Source: Candidatus Omnitrophota bacterium (lineage in GTDB: Bacteria; Omnitrophota; Gorgyraeia; Duberdicusellales; 4484-171). From it: DNA of 41,502 nt. Location of the stretch: contig JAIPGM010000013.1 of NCBI GenBank assembly GCA_021735655.1, positions 1 to 41,502 of the forward strand, in the 5' to 3' direction. The notes beneath the pieces are model-generated. The model did no database searches and was not told the origin of the DNA. It worked only from the letters and a program-made list of their open reading frames with translations. A program made the position numbers and the translations under genes. This document shows positions 127 through 33,232 of this stretch, in pieces (the first letter of the stretch is position 1; each line of letters starts with the position of its first letter).

Positions 127-1389
127 TCATCTCCTTTTAATTTCAACCTCTATTGGCAAGTCTTCTTTAACTCCTTGTTGACTATCTTCAAAAATAATCA
201 TGCCTCGATAAAAACCTTCGCTTACTTCTTTAGGTATCTGTAATCTAAAAATGAAATTCTTCTCGCGGGCCGAAGGAAGCTTTAAATTTGTATATACTAG
301 TTCAAACCAATCTTTTATCTGGCCGCTAGCTGATAATTTCAAGTTTAACTCTTTATCTAGACGATTTAAAAGAGTGTATTGTTGACTACGCAAAACGCCA
401 CTTACAGTTTCGATTTTTATATCTTTTGGTATTACTTCTAAGGCCGAAAGCAAATTGCCTTGAGATTCTTGGCCGAATTGAGCAACTTTTACTGAAAAAG
501 GAAACTCCTTAACTAATCTACTCGGGCCACGATAGCTAAGACGCAGCTGAGCAATATAATCACCGGCAGCTAATGTATTTGGAAAATGACCAATGAAGTA
601 TCTTCCAGCATTCGCATAAACCATGCCCTTCCCGGATCTTAGGGTTACTTCTCCTTTTCGCTTCTTATCTTTAGTCATTATTAAAACTGTGGCCTCACCG
701 CGAAAATGAACGTTTCCAGTATTTTTAACTAAGGCTGCAAAAAAACTCCCTTTCTGATTAGGGAACTCCTTAACTACTTTTCCTTTTAATCCGTTCGCCT
801 CTACCTCAGTTAAACTTTTAGAATCAATTGGTCCAGAAAAATAAAAAAAATCGTTAACCTCAGCCTGTTTTATTAAAGGTTTACTGCCCTTAACCGTAAT
901 CTGCAATAAAGAGGCTAGACGAAAAGCAACCTTTAACCCCTTTTGAGTGGTCTCTTCTTCACCAATTGGCTCAAACATTACTGCTGCGTAATAGCCACCA
1001 GAAGGAGTTCCAGCCGGAACTCTTAGCCTTAAAGGTATTTTCTTGGTAGCTAAAGGTTTAAGGCTTATTATCTTATCACGCACCTCAATCCAGTTTCCAA
1101 CACCTTTAGGGTCATCGCTAGGTTCAAGAAAAACTAACTCCCCATCCTCGCTCATGTATACTGTCTCGATATAAACCTTAGCCTTTAAGTTCCCATCAGA
1201 CCCAGAATTAGTTAATCTCAAGATAAACGATCTTGAACCTCCAGGATTCGATATAATCTCCAAGCTCGGGGGCTTAACTACCAAAGAAAAGCCTTGAGCC
1301 TGATAAGGCCCAATTAGACAAAAAAGAGTCAAAATTATGAGTAATTTTCGCATTTTATTAGTCTTTATTCTTAACTCATTATATACCAA
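127..1389 (-). CDS. Secreted protein of unknown function with a signal peptide and three tandem ~120-aa Ig-like/PapD-MSP-like beta-sandwich repeats. Start codon is TTG.
   Basis: 420-aa ORF. Hydrophobic leader LLIILTLFCLIGPYQAQG. Three segments each carry an L-x-L-x-N-x-G style beta-sandwich pattern with alternating hydrophobic residues. No catalytic motif recognised. Confidence 0.5.
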   Translation of the reverse strand: MVYNELRIKTNKMRKLLIILTLFCLIGPYQAQGFSLVVKPPSLEIISNPGGSRSFILRLTNSGSDGNLKAKVYIETVYMSEDGELVFLEPSDDPKGVGNWIEVRDKIISLKPLATKKIPLRLRVPAGTPSGGYYAAVMFEPIGEEETTQKGLKVAFRLASLLQITVKGSKPLIKQAEVNDFFYFSGPIDSKSLTEVEANGLKGKVVKEFPNQKGSFFAALVKNTGNVHFRGEATVLIMTKDKKRKGEVTLRSGKGMVYANAGRYFIGHFPNTLAAGDYIAQLRLSYRGPSRLVKEFPFSVKVAQFGQESQGNLLSALEVIPKDIKIETVSGVLRSQQYTLLNRLDKELNLKLSASGQIKDWFELVYTNLKLPSAREKNFIFRLQIPKEVSEGFYRGMIIFEDSQQGVKEDLPIEVEIKRR

Positions 1390-1452
1390 TGATTTATAAT
1401 TGTCAATTTAAAGCTAAAAATTGAAATTAGCTTGTTTTTTCAAACAAAATAT

Positions 1453-1481
1453 GTTACAGTTGAGATGGTTCATTTGATAAT
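1453..1481 (+). promoter_or_regulatory. Putative sigma70-type promoter driving the riboswitch and small-protein transcript.
   Basis: -35-like GTTACA at about 1453-1458, a 17-nt spacer, and -10 GATAAT at about 1476-1481 preceded by TG. The predicted TSS falls at about 1488, at the 5' edge of the aptamer. Confidence 0.35.
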
Positions 1482-1487
1482 TAGTTT

Positions 1488-1572
1488 TCCTTTGATAAAG
1501 GCAAATTTCGAGTGATCGAAAGACGCAAAGCCACCTGTCCTGATTAACAGGAAAGAGGGGTTACCAAAGAAC
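1488..1572 (+). promoter_or_regulatory. Candidate c-di-GMP-I (GEMM) riboswitch aptamer.
   Basis: Ordered conserved blocks: GGCAAA (1500-1505); hairpin UUUCGA-GUGA-UCGAAA with a GNRA tetraloop (1506-1521); G-ACGCAAAGCC (1522-1532); second hairpin CCUGU...ACAGG (1534-1551); GGGGUUACC (1557-1565). These match the recalled Vibrio Vc2 GEMM blocks GGCAAACC...GAAA...GGGACGCAAAGCC...GGGGUUACC in order and spacing. Confidence 0.55.
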
Positions 1573-1582
1573 GTACTCGAAA

Positions 1583-1613
1583 CCCTAAGATTTATTGCCT
1601 TAGGGTTTTTTTA
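1583..1613 (+). terminator. Intrinsic terminator / riboswitch expression platform.
   Basis: 7-bp stem CCCTAAG/CTTAGGG, 9-nt loop, followed by T8. Confidence 0.6.
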
Positions 1614-1615
1614 TT

Positions 1616-1649
1616 AACCCTTCAGTCAATATTGCCTGAAGGGTTTTTT
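1616..1649 (+). terminator. Second terminator-like hairpin, paralogous to the first. It covers the TTG at 1632 and lies just upstream of the ATG at 1662.
   Basis: 8-bp stem CCCTTCAG/CTGAAGGG, 10-nt loop, followed by T6. The loop and 3' arm share ATTGCCT with the first hairpin. Confidence 0.5.
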
Positions 1650-1661
1650 AATTTAAAGACG

Positions 1662-1991
1662 ATGAAAAACACAAGTTTCTACACAAGACGATTTAAAGGG
1701 TTGATGGCGCTAGTATGCGGGGTTTCCGTGGTTGTGGGGGCATTTTTGGCCAATCCTTGCTATGCCAAGGAAAGTAAGAGTTTCAGCATCTCGATAACTA
1801 TTCCCAAAATCATAGAACAAGTAAATAAGCCTCTTAATCCCCCTCTTCTGAGAGCAGAAGAGCCTGAAGAAAAAGACACAGGGGAAAGGGACAAAAAAAA
1901 CGAAGTCGAAGCCGACGAGAGCAATTCAAACAAGCTAGACTACCCTGAAGGCTACACGATAATCGTTAAAACTATTGTCCAAGAGCCTTAA
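1662..1991 (+). CDS. Small secreted acidic protein (~109 aa with signal peptide). Only plus-strand gene in the window. The ORF-track start at 1632 (TTG, inside the hairpin) is replaced by the ATG at 1662.
   Basis: Start MKNTSFYTRRFKGLMALVCGVSVVVGAFLANPCYA is a typical signal peptide (cleavage after CYA). Mature region is rich in E/D/K. Sits directly downstream of the riboswitch and terminator structure. Confidence 0.5.
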   Translation: MKNTSFYTRRFKGLMALVCGVSVVVGAFLANPCYAKESKSFSISITIPKIIEQVNKPLNPPLLRAEEPEEKDTGERDKKNEVEADESNSNKLDYPEGYTIIVKTIVQEP

Positions 1992-2033
1992 TTGTAACCT
2001 AACCCAACCTGAATTTAATCAAGGTATAACTTA

Positions 2034-2684
2034 TTAGGTTTGGAACAAAGTTAAAGTAACCTGTCCTAAATAGTCACCAGCTGGCTTATCCAAGCCAATT
2101 GGCAATACTCCTGGTGCGTCATTAGCATCGCCGGTACCAATGCCATAGAAAATTCTCAACCAACCACCAGCAAGCTCAAGATTAGTATAATCTATTCCAT
2201 CACTGTTAAGATAACTATACTTATTCAAATCAATAGCTGACTGTGGCCCCGTCTGCTTAACAAACACTACGTTGATATTCTGATCTAAGGTCTCCGTTCC
2301 ACCAGTTCTTACTACTGATGTCCTGGTATGTTGTATGGTCCAGCTAGGAACATTAGCAGTAATTCCGACGTCTACAGCATAGGTAAAGTCAGACCTAAAA
2401 ACATTATATTGAGAATCCAACCAAAGTTCTCCAAAGTCAACATTTCCAGCCGGAGACCAATTAGCACCAGCAATCTTGCTAATATCAACGTTAAACCCGT
2501 TCTGTTGCGGTATGTTGGCCTTGACATCATACTTGTCGGTTTGGAGGGCCGTTTGAGCAAAGCTAGTAAAAGCTAAGCTTAATGCTACCAAGAGCAAAAG
2601 ACTGATTTTGTAACTTTTTCGCCACATAACTACTCCTTTTTTTGTCTTGTCCGATTTCTGGACACTAAATATCAATAATCTCAA
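2034..2684 (-). CDS. Secreted beta-rich protein with a fimbrial-subunit-like C-terminal strand (SCPU/Csu/chaperone-usher pilin-like?). Function unknown.
   Basis: Signal peptide LLLLVALSLAFTSFAQT. Gly/Thr/Asn-rich beta composition. C-terminus PAGDYLGQVTLTLFQT resembles the G-x-Y-x-G-x-V-T-x-T-L-x-(Y/F) donor-strand motif of chaperone-usher/SCPU subunits. Confidence 0.45.
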   Translation of the reverse strand: MRLLIFSVQKSDKTKKGVVMWRKSYKISLLLLVALSLAFTSFAQTALQTDKYDVKANIPQQNGFNVDISKIAGANWSPAGNVDFGELWLDSQYNVFRSDFTYAVDVGITANVPSWTIQHTRTSVVRTGGTETLDQNINVVFVKQTGPQSAIDLNKYSYLNSDGIDYTNLELAGGWLRIFYGIGTGDANDAPGVLPIGLDKPAGDYLGQVTLTLFQT

Positions 2685-5827: not shown

Positions 5828-6240
5828 AGTTTTTCCATTAACTCTTTCTGCTTTTTTTCGATCAAATCGCGCTTTTTCTTGCTACGATCATCATAGCCAA
5901 TAAGATGTAAAATTCCGTGCAAGCAATAGAGCAAGACCTCTTTCTGCCAATCAACCTTTAAACTTTTAGCAACTTTTACCGCCTCCTCGACTGACACTAC
6001 TATCTCACCCAAATAATCAGGATCTAGAGGATCAGAAAGATCAAAACTAATAACATCGGTAGGGGTTGTTTTTTTTAAATAACGCTTATTTAAATTAACA
6101 ATAAAAGCGTTATCAACTAAAGTTAAAGATATCGTTTTACTAGGGATTAACAGAAGACCGGCTGCTTTTTCTAAAGATTTACTAAGAGTTTTAAGATTTA
6201 CTCTCTTTATTTTTTGACGGTTTGTTATTTCGATTTTCAT
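5809..6240 (-). CDS. ybeY: rRNA maturation endoribonuclease YbeY.
   Basis: HGILHLIGYDD metal-binding motif (H-x-x-x-H-x-x-G-Y-D). Length 143 aa. Conserved neighbourhood with 7TM-HD and recO. Confidence 0.85.
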   Translation of the reverse strand: MKIEITNRQKIKRVNLKTLSKSLEKAAGLLLIPSKTISLTLVDNAFIVNLNKRYLKKTTPTDVISFDLSDPLDPDYLGEIVVSVEEAVKVAKSLKVDWQKEVLLYCLHGILHLIGYDDRSKKKRDLIEKKQKELMEKLWLKKT

Positions 6241-7582
6241 CTTTAGGGTAGTTCACGCGAGTGTGAAATATAGCATTTAAAATGCGGGTAAAACTTTGGG
6301 TAATTTTTTCAATATCTCTTAAAGTAAGATTACACTCATCCAATTCGCCTTCCATAAACCTTTTCTTAACTACCTCTCTGACCATTTCCTCTATCCGAGC
6401 CGGGGTCGGCTCTTCAAGGGTTCGCGATAAAGCCTCAATCGTATCAGCTAAAGCCACAATGGCAGTTTCTTTAATCTGAGGTTTTGGCCCCGGATAACGA
6501 TATTCTTCTTCATGCTTTCCTTCTGGTTCAAGTTCTTTGGCCCGCTGGTAAAAAAAATAAACTAAGGTTCGTCCATGATGTTGGGCAATAAAATCAATAA
6601 TTTTAGAATTAATTCGGTATTTTTTAGCCAGATCAATCCCATCTTTTACATGGTTAAAAATAATCAACTTACTCATTGAAGGCTTAAGATTTTTATGAAC
6701 ATCACGATAACTAATTAGATTTTCTACAAAATAGTCGGGTTTTATCATCTTGCCAACATCATGATAATATGCACCGACCCGAGCGAGCAAAGGATTCGCG
6801 CCGATAGCTTCTGCAGCAGCTTCACTCAAATTAGCAACCACCAAAGAATGTTGATATGTGCCTGGAGCTGCTAAAATTAACTTCCTTAATAAAGGGTGAT
6901 TAAAATCAGACAACTCAAGCAAAGATACATTAGTAACAACTTTAAATACATATTCAAAAACCGGCTGAAACAACAAAACGATTCCTGAAGATATAACACC
7001 ATTGAGCACGCAAACCTTAAGTAAACTTAAATCAATACCCGATAGAACAAAAAGATTCTGTTCCCTTTCCATAAGAAAGGCTATCAAAAATTGAATAATT
7101 CCGGCAATTAGCCCCGCCTTAATAATCTGAAAACGCCGCCGAGCTCGATAGCTAAGCATAGCCGCAGACAGTGAACCAATGAAAAGACTAATTCCTAAAT
7201 TAAAATTTCCTCCATCGATTCCGGCGCTTAAAGCCGAAATAAAAATAATAAACAACAATGATAACTCTAGGTTGTTGAACAAAAGAGTAATCAGTATTGC
7301 AAAACCAATAGCAATAACGCCATAACCGGAAATTGGGAAAATTACAATGGTCAGGAGCGGTATCAATACAGCAATCGCAGCCAATATTGATAAGTCCAAA
7401 TAATTAGGCAGGTTGTTTATCTTTCTTAAAAAACTGGCATAGATAAAAAGAACTAAGGCTAAGGCCAGAAAAGAAAAATCAATCGAGTAGATAAAAAAAA
7501 CATAGCCAACAATCGAAAAAAAAGTTATACCAATAATAGAATTATCAAAGTTAATCCCTTTTTTAGCTATGGTAATTTTCAT
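6191..7582 (-). CDS. 7TM receptor with intracellular HD hydrolase domain (PgpH/YqfF family).
   Basis: N-terminal polytopic membrane region. C-terminal HD domain (HSLVVANLSEAAAEAIGANPLLARVGAYYHDVGK). Classic position upstream of ybeY. The stop overlaps the ybeY start by about 50 nt. Confidence 0.8.
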   Translation of the reverse strand: MKITIAKKGINFDNSIIGITFFSIVGYVFFIYSIDFSFLALALVLFIYASFLRKINNLPNYLDLSILAAIAVLIPLLTIVIFPISGYGVIAIGFAILITLLFNNLELSLLFIIFISALSAGIDGGNFNLGISLFIGSLSAAMLSYRARRRFQIIKAGLIAGIIQFLIAFLMEREQNLFVLSGIDLSLLKVCVLNGVISSGIVLLFQPVFEYVFKVVTNVSLLELSDFNHPLLRKLILAAPGTYQHSLVVANLSEAAAEAIGANPLLARVGAYYHDVGKMIKPDYFVENLISYRDVHKNLKPSMSKLIIFNHVKDGIDLAKKYRINSKIIDFIAQHHGRTLVYFFYQRAKELEPEGKHEEEYRYPGPKPQIKETAIVALADTIEALSRTLEEPTPARIEEMVREVVKKRFMEGELDECNLTLRDIEKITQSFTRILNAIFHTRVNYPKDENRNNKPSKNKESKS

Positions 7583-31981: not shown

Positions 31982-33232
31982 TTAATCTTTAAATATATTT
32001 TCATTTATTTTTATTCCCTTCTTTTTAAACAATGAGAAGAAATTCGGTTTACCATAGGCTTTGAATTTACCTTGAGAAACTAAATCTTCACTCACCCCTT
32101 CTGATTCATAACGAAAAATATCTTTAAGAATGATATGGTTATCTTTTAAGTCCTGCACTTCAGTAAGATAAGTTATCTTTCGTGAACCGTCAATAAGTTG
32201 CTCGTGTTGAACAATTAAATCTAAACCATAGGCAATCTGCTCACGAATCGCCCAAGTAGGCAAATTAAGGCTTGCATAAAGTGCTGTAGTCTCTAAACGA
32301 GTTAGGGTGTCCATTGGATTAGAAGCATGAATTACCGCAAGTGAACCCTTATGTCCGCTATTTAAAGCCTGAAGATAATCCATCGCCTCCTCACTTCTAA
32401 TTTCCCCCAAAATAATTCTGGTCGGACGCATACGCAGGGTATTGCAGAATAAATCCCGAATAGCAACTTCACCCTTTCCCTCAATATTCGGCGGACGAGT
32501 CAAAAGACGTACAACATGATCCTGGCGTAAAGTCAACTCCAAAGCATCCTCAATAGTAATAATCCGCTCATCAGGACCAATCGAAGAAGAAAGTACCTCT
32601 AAAGTCGTAGTCTTACCGCTTCCAGTAGCTCCGGAGAAAAGAATATTAGCCCTAACTTTAATGCAAGCAGTTAAAAACTCAGCCATCCGATCGTCAATCG
32701 TGCCTAATTTCACTAAATCGTTAACAGTTTCGATCGAACGTAAAAACTTTCTAACGGTTACCGTTGCTCCACCCACTGAAAGCGGCGGCAAAATAACATT
32801 TACCCGGGAACCGTCTTCTAGAGCAAAATCAACATAAGGATAGCTCTCATCAACCCTTCTTCCGGTAGGTTGAATCATCTTTTCAACGATATATCTTAAG
32901 TGGTCGCTGTTTTCAAATTTTATTTTAGTCTTGCCTTTTTTGCCGGCTTTTTCGATATATACCTTTTCGGGGCCATTAATCATAATTTCAGTTATGTCTG
33001 GGTCATCCATCAGCTTCTGTATCGGACCTAAGCCGGTATAATCAGCGCATAAGGACTGAATTATTTGCTCCTTATCTTCCTTTTTAAGATCAAGATAATG
33101 ACCTTGTTCAACCTTATGCTTGAAAAAAAGTTCGGCTCGCTCACGAATAAAATCTTCACTTAATTTTTGTGCCTCACCGACCCAAAGACTTATCTCTTTT
33201 CTGACGTCATTCTTAATTTTACCTAGATCCAT
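31982..33232 (-). CDS. CpaF/TadA-family secretion ATPase (type II/IV secretion NTPase, VirB11-like), orphan.
   Basis: Walker A SGATGSGKTT. IITIEDALEL. GEIRSEEAMDYLQALNSGHKGSLAVIHASN (CpaF His-box). Length 416 aa. Confidence 0.8.
   Translation of the reverse strand: MDLGKIKNDVRKEISLWVGEAQKLSEDFIRERAELFFKHKVEQGHYLDLKKEDKEQIIQSLCADYTGLGPIQKLMDDPDITEIMINGPEKVYIEKAGKKGKTKIKFENSDHLRYIVEKMIQPTGRRVDESYPYVDFALEDGSRVNVILPPLSVGGATVTVRKFLRSIETVNDLVKLGTIDDRMAEFLTACIKVRANILFSGATGSGKTTTLEVLSSSIGPDERIITIEDALELTLRQDHVVRLLTRPPNIEGKGEVAIRDLFCNTLRMRPTRIILGEIRSEEAMDYLQALNSGHKGSLAVIHASNPMDTLTRLETTALYASLNLPTWAIREQIAYGLDLIVQHEQLIDGSRKITYLTEVQDLKDNHIILKDIFRYESEGVSEDLVSQGKFKAYGKPNFFSLFKKKGIKINENIFKD

What the first reader, a model, noticed from the sequence alone, without database searches (positions are those of the whole stretch)
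1453..1661. Probable c-di-GMP-I (GEMM) riboswitch with promoter and terminator-type expression platform, upstream of the only plus-strand gene
Plus-strand region 1500-1565 carries, in the canonical order, GGCAAA, a GNRA-capped hairpin (UUUCGA-GUGA-UCGAAA), G-ACGCAAAGCC, a second hairpin (CCUGU/ACAGG) and GGGGUUACC. These are the three most conserved sequence blocks of the GEMM c-di-GMP-I aptamer, with helices where P1b and P2 are expected. About 15 nt downstream is a canonical intrinsic terminator (7-bp stem plus U8). A -35/-10 pair (GTTACA, 17 nt, GATAAT) is placed so that transcription would begin at the aptamer 5' end. The regulated gene encodes a small secreted acidic protein. The flanking genes encode secreted beta-sandwich proteins, the kind of cargo (adhesins, pili, surface proteins) that c-di-GMP riboswitches typically control. 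Some GEMM-I variants sense 3'3'-cGAMP instead; I cannot discriminate the two from sequence by eye.
Basis: partly seen in the sequence, partly recalled or inferred. Interest (0 to 1): 0.78.

Follow-up and report, generated by a model that had tools for sequence, protein, structure and literature searches.

The report
c-di-GMP riboswitch with two terminators
This is a genuine but ordinary member of the well-known c-di-GMP class I riboswitch family, in an uncultured Omnitrophota bacterium; it sits before a small secreted-protein gene and is followed by two back-to-back transcription terminators, which is unusual.

Summary
Window 1490-1568 (+) matches Rfam RF01051 (c-di-GMP-I) at 65.5 bits, against a gathering score of 35 (E 9e-11). 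It is the only Rfam hit in the 41.5 kb window. The three ligand-contacting positions are canonical: G20 = G1500, A47 = A1527, C92 = C1564. That points to c-di-GMP rather than 3'3'-cGAMP, which needs A20.

Five related Omnitrophota loci carry the same aptamer. Nine base pairs show compensatory changes.

Both are conserved as orthologues in a locus whose neighbouring protein is only 55% identical.

The aptamer and the terminators can fold at the same time. A predicted anti-terminator pairs the aptamer's P3 3' strand with the 5' arm of T2. In one orthologue the Shine-Dalgarno sequence lies inside P3. From these three points I infer an OFF switch, in which c-di-GMP causes termination. That direction is not demonstrated.

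The regulated gene (1662-1991) encodes a conserved small secreted acidic protein. It lies inside a locus with a pilus-chaperone/WxLIP-like protein and a secretin.

Verdict: a new member of a known kind, of modest interest.

The parts
1432..1460 (+). Candidate promoter A: -35 TTGTTT (1432-1437), a 17-nt spacer, and an extended -10 TGtTACAGT (1452-1460). Predicted start near 1467.
   Evidence: Read from the sequence. The box cTTGttt..N..aTATGTTAc is conserved upstream of the small ORF in the window, L002, L003, L090 and L006. It is also conserved in L004, which has no riboswitch. Promoter use is inferred, not shown.
1453..1481 (+). Predicted start near 1488, two nucleotides before P1.
   Evidence: The consensus scan matches 9 of 12 positions. 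The GATAAT box is kept in L002, L090 and L006, and is TAAAAT in L003. Which of promoters A and B is used cannot be decided here.
1490..1569 (+). c-di-GMP-I (GEMM-I) aptamer. P1 pairs 1490-1494 with 1565-1569. A 2-bp helix pairs G1501-C1526 and C1502-G1525. The P2 hairpin spans 1506-1521 with GNRA loop GUGA at 1512-1515. P3 pairs 1529-1542 with 1548-1562. The ligand positions are G1500 (G20), A1527 (A47) and C1564 (C92).
   Evidence: RF01051 scores 65.5 bits against a gathering score of 35. Covariation across 5 loci supports the helices. The custom covariance model scores 102 bits on it.
1555..1563 (+). Aptamer P3 3' strand GAGGGGUUA. It is the proposed switching strand and can pair either with P3's 5' strand or with the 5' arm of T2 (1615-1623).
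   Evidence: Progressive folding predicts this alternative helix in the window, L002 and L003. Before T2's 3' arm emerges, the anti-terminator fold is -41.0 kcal/mol and the fold with P3 enforced is -38.7. The duplex energy is -12.4 kcal/mol, reached by 0.4% of shuffled arms. This part is inferred.
1579..1612 (+). Terminator T1: stem 1579-1589 with 1599-1609 (core CCCUAAG/CUUAGGG), a 9-nt loop, and a U7 tract at 1606-1612.
   Evidence: Folds at -13.0 kcal/mol with z -5.0. The core stem sequence is conserved in L002, L003 and L090. The base of the stem shows an A-U to U-A compensatory change in L003.
1616..1649 (+). Terminator T2: stem 1616-1625 with 1636-1645 (AACCCUUCAG/CUGAAGGGUU), and a U6 tract at 1644-1649. 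It ends 12 nt before the start codon.
   Evidence: Folds at -15.4 kcal/mol with z -5.8. L003 has an orthologous T2 with an A-U to G-C compensatory change. L090 has no T2.
1662..1991 (+). The regulated gene. It encodes a 109-aa protein with a signal-peptide-like N-terminus, the conserved motif ISITIPKI, an acidic variable linker, and a conserved C-terminal IVKTIxxEP.
   Evidence: Homologues sit at the same syntenic position in L002, L003, L004, L006 and L090. All indels are in frame, and third-codon positions change most. There is no Pfam match.
1378..1406 (-). Divergent promoter TTGACA-17-TATAAT for the 420-aa chaperone/WxLIP-like gene. It is context for the riboswitch, not part of it.
   Evidence: Matches the consensus at 12 of 12 positions.

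Best explanation
Window 1490-1569 (+) is a canonical class I c-di-GMP riboswitch aptamer in the 5' leader of a small secreted-protein gene (1662-1991) of a Candidatus Omnitrophica MAG. It controls that gene by transcription attenuation at two tandem intrinsic terminators, T1 and T2.

The most likely logic is OFF. With c-di-GMP bound, P1, P3 and the ligand-binding core are locked, both terminator hairpins form, and transcription stops before the gene. Without ligand, the P3 3' strand GAGGGGUU(A) can leave the aptamer. It can then pair with the C-rich 5' arm of a terminator, most strongly T2 (1615-1623), so that polymerase reads through.

What is shown: family membership, the ligand-contact nucleotides, the two terminator hairpins, and the conservation of the whole arrangement. 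What is inferred: ligand binding itself, the anti-terminator helix, and the OFF direction.

My confidence that this is a functional c-di-GMP-I riboswitch acting through these terminators is about 0.9. My confidence in the OFF direction is about 0.6. The number given below is for the statement as a whole.
For: **Family membership.**
- RF01051 scores 65.5 bits against a gathering score of 35, over the full model length.
- The aptamers in L002, L003, L090, L006 and L005 all match: 70, 68.7 and 37.2 bits to RF01051, 65.8 bits to RF03167, and 76 bits to the custom model.
- Across the five-locus alignment, 25 pairs are 91% paired, 9 show changes on both sides, and 0 of 500 shuffles do as well. Versions slid by 1-3 columns drop to 36-54% paired.

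**Ligand.** G20, A47 and C92 are G1500, A1527 and C1564, and G20 is invariant in the alignment. Their roles are taken from PMC6140456.

**Terminators.** T1 folds at -13.0 kcal/mol and T2 at -15.4, each followed by a U tract. Both are conserved as orthologues, with compensatory changes, in L003. The flanking protein there is only 55% identical.

**OFF direction.**
- The aptamer, T1 and T2 coexist in the minimum-free-energy fold. This is the architecture of the Cd1 OFF switch. It differs from the mutually exclusive aptamer and terminator of the pilM ON switch (PMC9262584).
- The anti-T2 helix is the predicted fold in all three dual-terminator loci just before T2's 3' arm emerges. It is favoured by about 2.3-3.4 kcal/mol, which is small enough for ligand binding to override.
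- The analogous helix AGGGGU/ACCCCU is predicted in the single-terminator locus L090.
- Complementarity between the P3 3' strand and the terminator 5' arms exceeds that of shuffled arms, with p between 0.004 and 0.07.
- In orthologue L006 there is no terminator. The only Shine-Dalgarno-like sequence, GAGGAG, lies 7 nt before the AUG and is itself the P3 3' strand, so a folded aptamer would block translation.
Against: - No experiment was done, so ligand binding and switching are untested.
- At equilibrium, T1 and T2 form whether or not the aptamer is folded. Any regulation must therefore be kinetic, and these tools cannot model that.
- The predicted anti-terminator acts mainly on T2. For T1 the aptamer fold is favoured by 0.6-2.2 kcal/mol, so T1 may terminate constitutively.
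- The best-studied dual-terminator c-di-GMP-I riboswitch, Bc1, did not respond to c-di-GMP in vivo, because its T2 stayed folded (PMC11218506).
- I chose the switching segment after seeing the folds, so the shuffle p-values are optimistic.
- Only about three independent lineages carry terminator-type platforms.
- No GGDEF, EAL or PilZ gene lies in this window, so c-di-GMP signalling in this organism is not shown here.
Confidence: 0.72

Rival explanations
1. The aptamer is the same, but the switch is ON: c-di-GMP binding promotes read-through of T1 and T2 and induces the small protein.
For: Many c-di-GMP-I riboswitches before adhesin or pilus genes are ON switches. In relative L005 the aptamer's own 3' strand (GGCUACCGAA) is the 5' arm of the terminator, which is a clear ON design. 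In the window and L002, a ligand-free alternative helix (UUUCGAGUG with CACUCGAAA) is predicted at transcript lengths 100-118. In principle it could belong to an ON mechanism.
Against: In the window neither terminator shares nucleotides with the aptamer, so ligand binding has no obvious way to prevent them from forming. The alternative helix removes only the A-U base of T1 and is absent from L003. In L006 the Shine-Dalgarno sequence lies inside P3, which points to OFF.
Confidence: 0.12
2. The two strong terminators act constitutively. The main product would then be a short riboswitch RNA of about 125-185 nt that does not regulate the downstream gene in cis. It would be either a c-di-GMP-binding sponge or small RNA, like the Bdellovibrio merRNA, or a switch locked OFF, like Bc1.
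For: T1 and T2 form in every equilibrium fold. T1 is not clearly opposed by any alternative structure. There are precedents: Bc1's T2 masks any response to c-di-GMP (PMC11218506), and the merRNA is an abundant stand-alone c-di-GMP riboswitch transcript in a bacterial predator (PMC3627812).
Against: T2 ends 12 nt before the start codon, so there is no room for a separate promoter and the conserved ORF can only be expressed by read-through. In orthologues the same aptamer is fused directly to the Shine-Dalgarno sequence and AUG (L006) or has a single terminator (L090). That indicates real cis-regulation of this gene family.
Confidence: 0.13
3. The aptamer senses 3'3'-cGAMP, or is promiscuous, rather than sensing c-di-GMP.
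For: GEMM-Ib RNAs are indistinguishable from GEMM-I at the level of the Rfam model, and some natural variants bind both ligands (PMC6140456).
Against: The discriminating position is G (G1500), as in the c-di-GMP-selective Vc2 riboswitch. It is G in all six related aptamers. A47 and C92 are also canonical, so this is not the GGC variant RF03167.
Confidence: 0.04
4. The biologically important output is antisense or convergent transcription. Read-through transcripts cross the small ORF and run into the 3' end of the convergent 216-aa subunit gene (2034-2684, minus strand). The riboswitch would then tune the subunit, chaperone and secretin genes indirectly. This reading is not exclusive of the best explanation.
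For: No intrinsic terminator was found between the small ORF's stop (1991) and the convergent gene's stop (2034). In L003 the two stop codons abut, at 2934 and 2935. In L005, and in degenerate form in L011, a GEMM-I element sits directly in front of the subunit, chaperone and secretin genes on their own strand. The same pathway is therefore under c-di-GMP control in relatives. Antisense-acting riboswitches are known (PMC9943018).
Against: This rests purely on geometry, with no expression data. The small ORF is itself conserved as a protein, so it needs no antisense role to explain the riboswitch. The 420-aa gene has its own consensus promoter.
Confidence: 0.15

Closest known systems
c-di-GMP-I (GEMM-I) riboswitch, Rfam RF01051; type example Vibrio cholerae Vc2
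   Same: It makes a full-length match to the covariance model at nearly twice the gathering score. It has P1, P2 and P3, a GNRA tetraloop on P2, and G20, A47 and C92 all present.
   Different: Nothing differs at the aptamer level. The host phylum (Omnitrophota) and the regulated gene family are not described in the papers I could search.
Cd1 riboswitch of Clostridioides difficile, a transcriptional OFF switch before the flagellar operon
   Same: The aptamer and terminator are separate and can coexist. An anti-terminator that borrows the aptamer's 3' strand competes with both (PMC9262584).
   Different: Cd1 has one terminator and this RNA has two. Here the direction is inferred, not measured.
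Bc1 c-di-GMP-I riboswitch of the Bacillus cereus group, which has a dual-terminator expression platform
   Same: Two rho-independent terminators follow a single GEMM-I aptamer within one expression platform. The authors call this arrangement rarely seen (PMC11218506).
   Different: Bc1's terminators are 28 bp apart in a long platform, and its T1 unfolds when c-di-GMP is present. Here the hairpins are about 4-7 nt apart and look like a duplication of one unit. The predicted ligand-sensitive terminator is T2. The two platforms are not homologous, and the phyla and downstream genes differ.
GEMM-Ib 3'3'-cGAMP riboswitches (Geobacter Gs1761, pilM)
   Same: The same fold and the same Rfam model.
   Different: Those RNAs carry A at the G20 position; this one carries G (PMC6140456). 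pilM is an ON switch whose terminator overlaps the aptamer, like L005 and unlike the window.
c-di-GMP riboswitch-regulated small proteins of C. difficile (bioRxiv 10.64898/2026.06.10.731418)
   Same: A GEMM riboswitch controls a conserved family of very small exported or membrane-associated proteins (abstract seen).
   Different: No sequence relationship was tested or is expected. The phylum and genomic context differ.

Membership tests
c-di-GMP-I riboswitch (RF01051) | Covariance-model score at or above Rfam's gathering score of 35 bits | tested here: met
   65.5 bits, E 9e-11, model positions 1-87 of 87, at window 1490-1568 (+).
c-di-GMP-I riboswitch (RF01051) | Three-helix architecture (P1, P2, P3 and the 2-bp GC helix) supported by covariation | tested here: met
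   Across 5 related aptamers, 25 pairs are 91% paired, 9 show changes on both sides, and 0 of 500 shuffles do as well. Slid controls reach at most 54% paired. P1 is the weakest helix at 68% paired.
c-di-GMP-I riboswitch (RF01051) | Ligand-contacting nucleotides G20, A47 and C92 (Vc2 numbering) | tested here: met
   They are G1500, A1527 and C1564 by alignment to the model consensus. Their roles come from PMC6140456. Mapping Vc2 numbers onto the consensus rests partly on my own knowledge of the Vc2 sequence.
c-di-GMP-I riboswitch (RF01051) | GNRA tetraloop on P2 docking into a receptor in P3 | tested here: inconclusive
   The GUGA (GNRA) loop is present at 1512-1515. The receptor in P3 was not analysed.
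c-di-GMP-I riboswitch (RF01051) | Selective, high-affinity binding of c-di-GMP | not testable with these tools
   This needs in-line probing, ITC or SHAPE.
c-di-GMP-I riboswitch (RF01051) | An expression platform that couples the aptamer to a downstream gene | tested here: met
   Two intrinsic terminators lie between the aptamer and the start codon. The arrangement is conserved in L002 and L003. L090 has one terminator, and L006 has its Shine-Dalgarno sequence inside P3.
GEMM-Ib 3'3'-cGAMP riboswitch | Adenine at the position equivalent to Vc2 G20 | tested here: not met
   The position is G1500, and it is G in all related aptamers.
c-di-GMP-I-GGC variant (RF03167) | G in place of A47 (consensus GACGCGAAG) | tested here: not met
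   The window reads GACGCAAAG. In the window RF01051 is the best clan member. L006 scores best with RF03167 but also has A at this position.
c-di-GMP-II riboswitch (RF01786) | Match to the class II covariance model | tested here: not met
   No hit at the gathering threshold anywhere in the window.
Dual-terminator expression platform (Bc1 type) | Two rho-independent terminators within one expression platform, after a single aptamer | tested here: met
   T1 spans 1579-1612 and T2 spans 1616-1649. The resemblance to Bc1 is in architecture only. I did not align the two platforms; they come from different phyla and I assume they are unrelated (PMC11218506).

The most novel reading that the evidence does not exclude
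The riboswitch may be one half of a reciprocal c-di-GMP circuit around an undescribed Omnitrophota surface-fibre system. That system would consist of a pilin-like subunit, a pilus-chaperone/WxLIP-like protein and a secretin.

In some lineages (L005 and L011) a GEMM-I element sits in front of the operon; it is ON-type in L005 and degenerate in L011. In the window's lineage a GEMM-I element inferred to be OFF-type, with a duplicated terminator, controls a small secreted protein encoded antisense, between the subunit gene and the chaperone gene.

Read-through transcription, or the small protein itself, would antagonise fibre production. The small protein has two beta-strand-like motifs, which could in principle act as a donor-strand-like cap or inhibitor. 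Rising c-di-GMP would then switch the fibre on by silencing its antagonist.

The two terminators would be a conserved two-stage attenuator, with T1 leaky and constitutive and T2 gated by ligand.
Probability: 0.2. Interest if true: 0.55.

Novelty: new member of a known kind. Interest (0 to 1): 0.33.

Why it matters
For genome annotation this is a routine but solid call. It marks the 109-aa ORF, and by association the neighbouring subunit, chaperone-like and secretin genes, as part of a c-di-GMP-responsive surface programme. The organism belongs to Omnitrophota, a phylum known only from metagenomes and with almost no characterised regulation.

The comparative set has some value for riboswitch biology. 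The same aptamer and the same gene family occur with five different arrangements:
- Two terminators (window, L002, L003).
- One terminator (L090).
- A Shine-Dalgarno sequence buried in P3 (L006).
- No riboswitch at all (L004).
- An ON-type terminator overlapping the aptamer, in front of the neighbouring operon (L005).

This is a compact natural series for studying how expression platforms are rewired. It is also a second, independent example of the rarely reported dual-terminator platform.

Tried and rejected
1. **Genome collection.** I scanned the GTDB genome collection for relatives of the 420-aa protein. The single-sequence scan found nothing. The alignment scan returned only the two MAGs already in hand.

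2. **Distant loci.** I scanned 80 metagenome loci encoding distant (21-34% identical) relatives of the 420-aa protein for GEMM-I, with a regex and a custom covariance model. Only L011 gave a hit, at 34 bits, and that hit is below Rfam's gathering score. The riboswitch association is therefore confined to the close Omnitrophota clade.

3. **Loop-to-core pairing.** I tested whether the conserved UGCC at the 3' end of every terminator loop pairs with the aptamer core AAGGCAA to form an anti-terminator. It appears in transient folds and beats shuffles when that core segment is pre-specified (p about 0.01-0.03). It is not significant when any aptamer segment may be the partner (p 0.07-0.3). It is also absent from L090, where UGCGUC instead matches GACGCA. 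I do not rely on it.

4. **Linker helix.** A helix between the P2 5' strand and the linker (UUUCGAGUG with CACUCGAAA) occurs in the window and L002 but is not conserved in L003. I treat it as lineage-specific or chance.

5. **Function of the neighbouring proteins.**
   - Pfam gives nothing for the small protein or the 216-aa protein.
   - A PDB profile search of the 216-aa family gives nothing.
   - The single-sequence model is unusable at pLDDT 38.

6. **Bidirectional terminators.** T1 and T2 cannot serve as terminators for minus-strand genes. Their reverse complements lack U tracts, and the upstream gene is divergent.

7. **c-di-GMP enzymes.** I looked for c-di-GMP enzymes or receptors in the window and found none. 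The HD protein at 6191-7582 is of the 7TMR-HD type.
Full report
**1. The observation**

A search of the whole 41,502-base window, both strands, against all 4227 Rfam covariance models returned exactly one hit. It is RF01051 (c-di-GMP-I) at 1490-1568 (+), scoring 65.5 bits against a gathering score of 35, with E 9e-11, and it covers the full model length. Class II (RF01786) gave no hit.

**2. Anatomy of the aptamer**

From the model alignment and a five-locus alignment the helices are:
- **P1:** CUUUG 1490-1494 with CAAAG 1565-1569.
- **2-bp helix:** G1501-C1526 and C1502-G1525.
- **P2:** UUUCGA 1506-1511 with UCGAAA 1516-1521, capped by the GNRA loop GUGA.
- **P3:** 1529-1542 with 1548-1562.

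The sequence CCUGUCCUG offers two CCUG copies, and the homologues L003 and L006 support pairing of the second copy. The first CCU pairs with AGG at 1556-1558 instead.

**3. Which ligand**

In Vc2 numbering, G20 reads the Hoogsteen face of one guanine of c-di-GMP and C92 forms a Watson-Crick pair with the other. cGAMP-sensing GEMM-Ib RNAs replace G20 with A (PMC6140456).

G20 is the unpaired G immediately 5' of the 2-bp helix. A47 is the A immediately 3' of that helix. C92 is the first C of the ACC that precedes the P1 3' strand. This mapping rests on the Rfam structure line plus my own knowledge of the Vc2 sequence.

In the window these positions are G1500, A1527 and C1564, all canonical. G20 is invariant in all six related aptamers. 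The RNA is therefore predicted to be c-di-GMP-selective. It is not the GGC variant either, since RF03167 requires G at position 47.

**4. Source and relatives**

The 420-aa protein encoded divergently at 127-1389 (-) is identical to a GenBank protein of a Candidatus Omnitrophica MAG, on a contig of exactly 41,502 bp.

Homologues of the small ORF and of the 420-aa protein led to related loci. They compare as follows:

| Locus | Arrangement in front of the small ORF or operon |
|---|---|
| L002 (close relative) | Aptamer + T1 + T2 + small ORF |
| L003 (420-aa protein 55% identical) | Aptamer + T1 + T2 + small ORF |
| L090 | Aptamer + one terminator + about 50-nt spacer + Shine-Dalgarno sequence + small ORF |
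| L006 | Aptamer abuts the start codon; GAGGAG, part of the P3 3' strand, is the only Shine-Dalgarno-like sequence, 7 nt before the AUG |
| L004 | Small ORF right after the conserved promoter-like box; no riboswitch |
| L005 | Weaker GEMM-I hit (37.2 bits) on the same strand as, and upstream of, the subunit, 412-aa and secretin genes; its terminator stem uses the aptamer's own 3' strand (GGCUACCGAA/UUCGGUAGCC-U9), an ON design |
| L011 | Degenerate copy in the same position as in L005, scoring below Rfam's threshold |

On the alignment of the five aptamers from the window, L002, L003, L006 and L005 (L090 was found later and is not in it), 91% of cells pair and 9 of 25 pairs show changes on both sides. 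No shuffle out of 500 does as well, and slid controls fall to 36-54% paired.

Eighty more distant loci encoding 21-34% identical relatives of the 420-aa protein carry no GEMM-I element.

**5. The expression platform**

- **T1 (1579-1612):** core CCCUAAG/CUUAGGG, extendable to 11 bp, -13.0 kcal/mol, followed by U7.
- **T2 (1616-1649):** AACCCUUCAG/CUGAAGGGUU, -15.4 kcal/mol, followed by U6.

None of 200 shuffles folds as well as either one. T2 ends 12 nt before the AUG, so the ORF can only be transcribed by reading through both.

T1 and T2 resemble each other and look like a duplication. Each has its own orthologue in L003 with compensatory changes: at the base of T1 an A-U pair becomes U-A, and in T2 an A-U pair becomes G-C. 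The doublet is therefore old and maintained. L090 has only the T1 type.

[quoted passage not shown] Its authors call the arrangement rarely seen (PMC11218506).

**6. Direction of switching (inferred)**

- **Architecture.** The aptamer, T1 and T2 are all present together in the minimum-free-energy fold. This is the logic of the Cd1 OFF switch, where aptamer and terminator coexist and both compete with an anti-terminator. In the pilM ON switch the aptamer and terminator exclude each other (PMC9262584).
- **Anti-terminator at T2.** Folding transcripts of increasing length shows a transient structure in the window, L002 and L003. It appears just after T2's 5' arm is made and before its 3' arm is made. 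In it, GAGGGGUUA (1555-1563, the P3 3' strand) pairs with UAACCCUUC (1615-1623) and encloses T1. With constraints at equal length, this fold beats the P3-intact fold by 2.3 kcal/mol in the window and 2.4 in L003. A margin that small could easily be reversed by ligand binding.
- **Single-terminator locus.** In L090 the equivalent helix AGGGGU/ACCCCU is the predicted fold at transcript lengths 98-110.
- **Shuffle tests.** Duplex energies between the P3 3' strand and the terminator 5' arms beat composition-matched shuffles. For the window, p is 0.004 for both T1 and T2. For L003, p is 0.066 and 0.011. For L090, p is 0.027.
- **Translational orthologue.** In L006 the Shine-Dalgarno sequence lies inside P3, which points the same way.

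There are caveats. At equilibrium both terminators always win, so any control must be kinetic. For T1 the aptamer fold is favoured over the anti-terminator, so T1 may be a leaky constitutive attenuator and T2 the gated one. I picked the switching segment after seeing the folds. Bc1 shows that a second terminator can mask a response altogether.

I put OFF at about 0.6, ON at about 0.12, and a locked or stand-alone RNA at about 0.13. A stand-alone role has a precedent in the merRNA of Bdellovibrio (PMC3627812).

**7. Promoter**

It would start transcription about two nucleotides before P1.

A second, overlapping candidate is TTGTTT (1432-1437), a 17-nt spacer, and TGtTACAGT (1452-1460). It is conserved in all six loci, including the riboswitch-less L004.

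I cannot decide between the two. Either one puts the whole aptamer in the 5' leader.

**8. What is regulated**

The ORF at 1662-1991 is real. Six homologues at the same syntenic position share four features: a hydrophobic N-terminus, the motif I-S/T-I/V-T-I-P-K/R-I, a variable acidic linker with in-frame indels, and a C-terminal xTIxxEP-like motif. Third-codon positions change most. There is no Pfam match.

The neighbouring genes are:
- **Downstream and convergent:** a 197/216-aa secreted protein whose C-terminus, PAGDYLGQVTLTL, recalls fimbrial-subunit endings. That resemblance is from my own knowledge. Its structure could not be predicted.
- **Upstream and divergent:** the 420-aa protein. 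Its AlphaFold2 model (pLDDT 81) has three beta-sandwich domains. Its best compact structural matches are Enterococcus faecium WxLIP (9i25_C, 9i1y) and the chaperone-usher chaperones CfaA and CsuC, with target TM-scores of 0.45-0.55. A sub-threshold Pfam WxLIP_PGBD hit agrees with this.
- **Next gene in relatives:** a secretin, overlapping or within about 15 nt of the upstream gene's stop. In the window the secretin would lie just off the left end.

The riboswitch therefore sits in a surface-fibre or secretion locus, which fits the usual GEMM regulon. The rest of the window holds housekeeping genes and no c-di-GMP enzyme.

**9. Comparison and novelty**

Membership in c-di-GMP-I is met on every feature that can be tested from sequence. 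Membership in GEMM-Ib (cGAMP), the GGC variant and class II is tested and not met.

This is a new member of a known kind. The mildly unusual aspects are three. The terminator doublet is conserved. One orthologous gene shows several different expression platforms. The antisense placement inside a chaperone-like and secretin locus leaves room for an antisense or antagonist circuit, which I rate at about 0.2 probability.

Standard pipelines that run Rfam would find this element. I could not check whether the GenBank record already annotates it.

**10. Verdict**

Three corrections apply: there are two terminators, the P3 register is different, and the U tract is U7. One addition applies: the ligand can be called as c-di-GMP from G20. 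Interest is 0.33.

Noticed in passing
window 127-1389 (-); L004 4001-6912; L005 4001-6894; L006 664-3603; L011 2968-5788: The 420-aa secreted protein is predicted to have three beta-sandwich domains. It resembles E. faecium WxLIP and the chaperone-usher chaperones CfaA and CsuC. In relatives it is always followed, with overlapping or nearly abutting (within about 15 nt) reading frames, by a secretin gene (PF00263 with Secretin_N and STN). A pilus-chaperone-like protein paired with a secretin rather than an usher may be an undescribed fibre-export arrangement. About 160 metagenome stretches encode relatives.
   Followed up: partly
L005 3122-3232 (+): In another Omnitrophota MAG (GCA_014729775.1) a GEMM-I aptamer (37.2 bits) precedes the subunit, chaperone-like and secretin operon on the same strand. 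Its terminator is built from the aptamer's own 3' strand, an ON design, opposite to the inferred logic in the window. A PilZ-domain gene lies just upstream, at L005 2265-2630.
   Followed up: partly
L004 3680-3960 (-): The orthologous small ORF in GCA_016939345.1 has no riboswitch. Its ATG follows the conserved promoter-like box by only about 9 nt, so the mRNA may be leaderless.
   Followed up: no
L011 2156-2245 (+): A degenerate GEMM-I-like element scores 34 bits with the custom model but falls below Rfam's gathering score. It lies upstream of a 186-aa, 418-aa and secretin operon. It may be a divergent or decaying riboswitch.
   Followed up: partly
window 1378-1406 (-): A perfect sigma-70 consensus promoter (TTGACA-17-TATAAT) faces the 420-aa gene. 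It implies that the true start codon is the ATG at 1353 (the 408-aa product annotated in GenBank) rather than the TTG at 1389.
   Followed up: no
window 1473-1480 and 1491-1498 (+): The direct repeat TTTGATAA occurs in the leader just upstream of the aptamer and again as the P1 5' strand plus the junction. The upstream copy could offer an alternative partner for the P1 3' strand CAAAG, or it may simply be the -10 box.
   Followed up: no
window 1991-2034; L003 2934-2935: The small ORF and the convergent 216-aa gene have no recognisable terminator between their stop codons, and in L003 the stops abut. Read-through from the riboswitch promoter would therefore be antisense to the subunit gene's 3' end.
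   Followed up: partly
window 6191-7582 (-): A 7TM receptor with an intracellular HD hydrolase domain (PF07698 + PF01966) lies in the ybeY-recO neighbourhood. This family includes the c-di-AMP phosphodiesterase PgpH (my own knowledge). It is the only gene in the window that might relate to cyclic dinucleotides.
   Followed up: no
window 31982-33232 (-): A type II/IV secretion-system ATPase (T2SSE, PF00437) sits on its own among housekeeping genes. It could power a pilus or secretion system connected with the secretin locus.
   Followed up: no
L090 1596-1601 versus L090 1530-1535: In the single-terminator locus, the terminator's loop-to-3'-arm junction UGCGUC is complementary to the aptamer core GACGCA. 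In the window and L003 the equivalent junction, UUGCCUU, is complementary to the other core strand, AAGGCAA. This is suggestive of an anti-terminator that reads the ligand pocket. It is not significant against a whole-aptamer null (p 0.02-0.3).
   Followed up: yes
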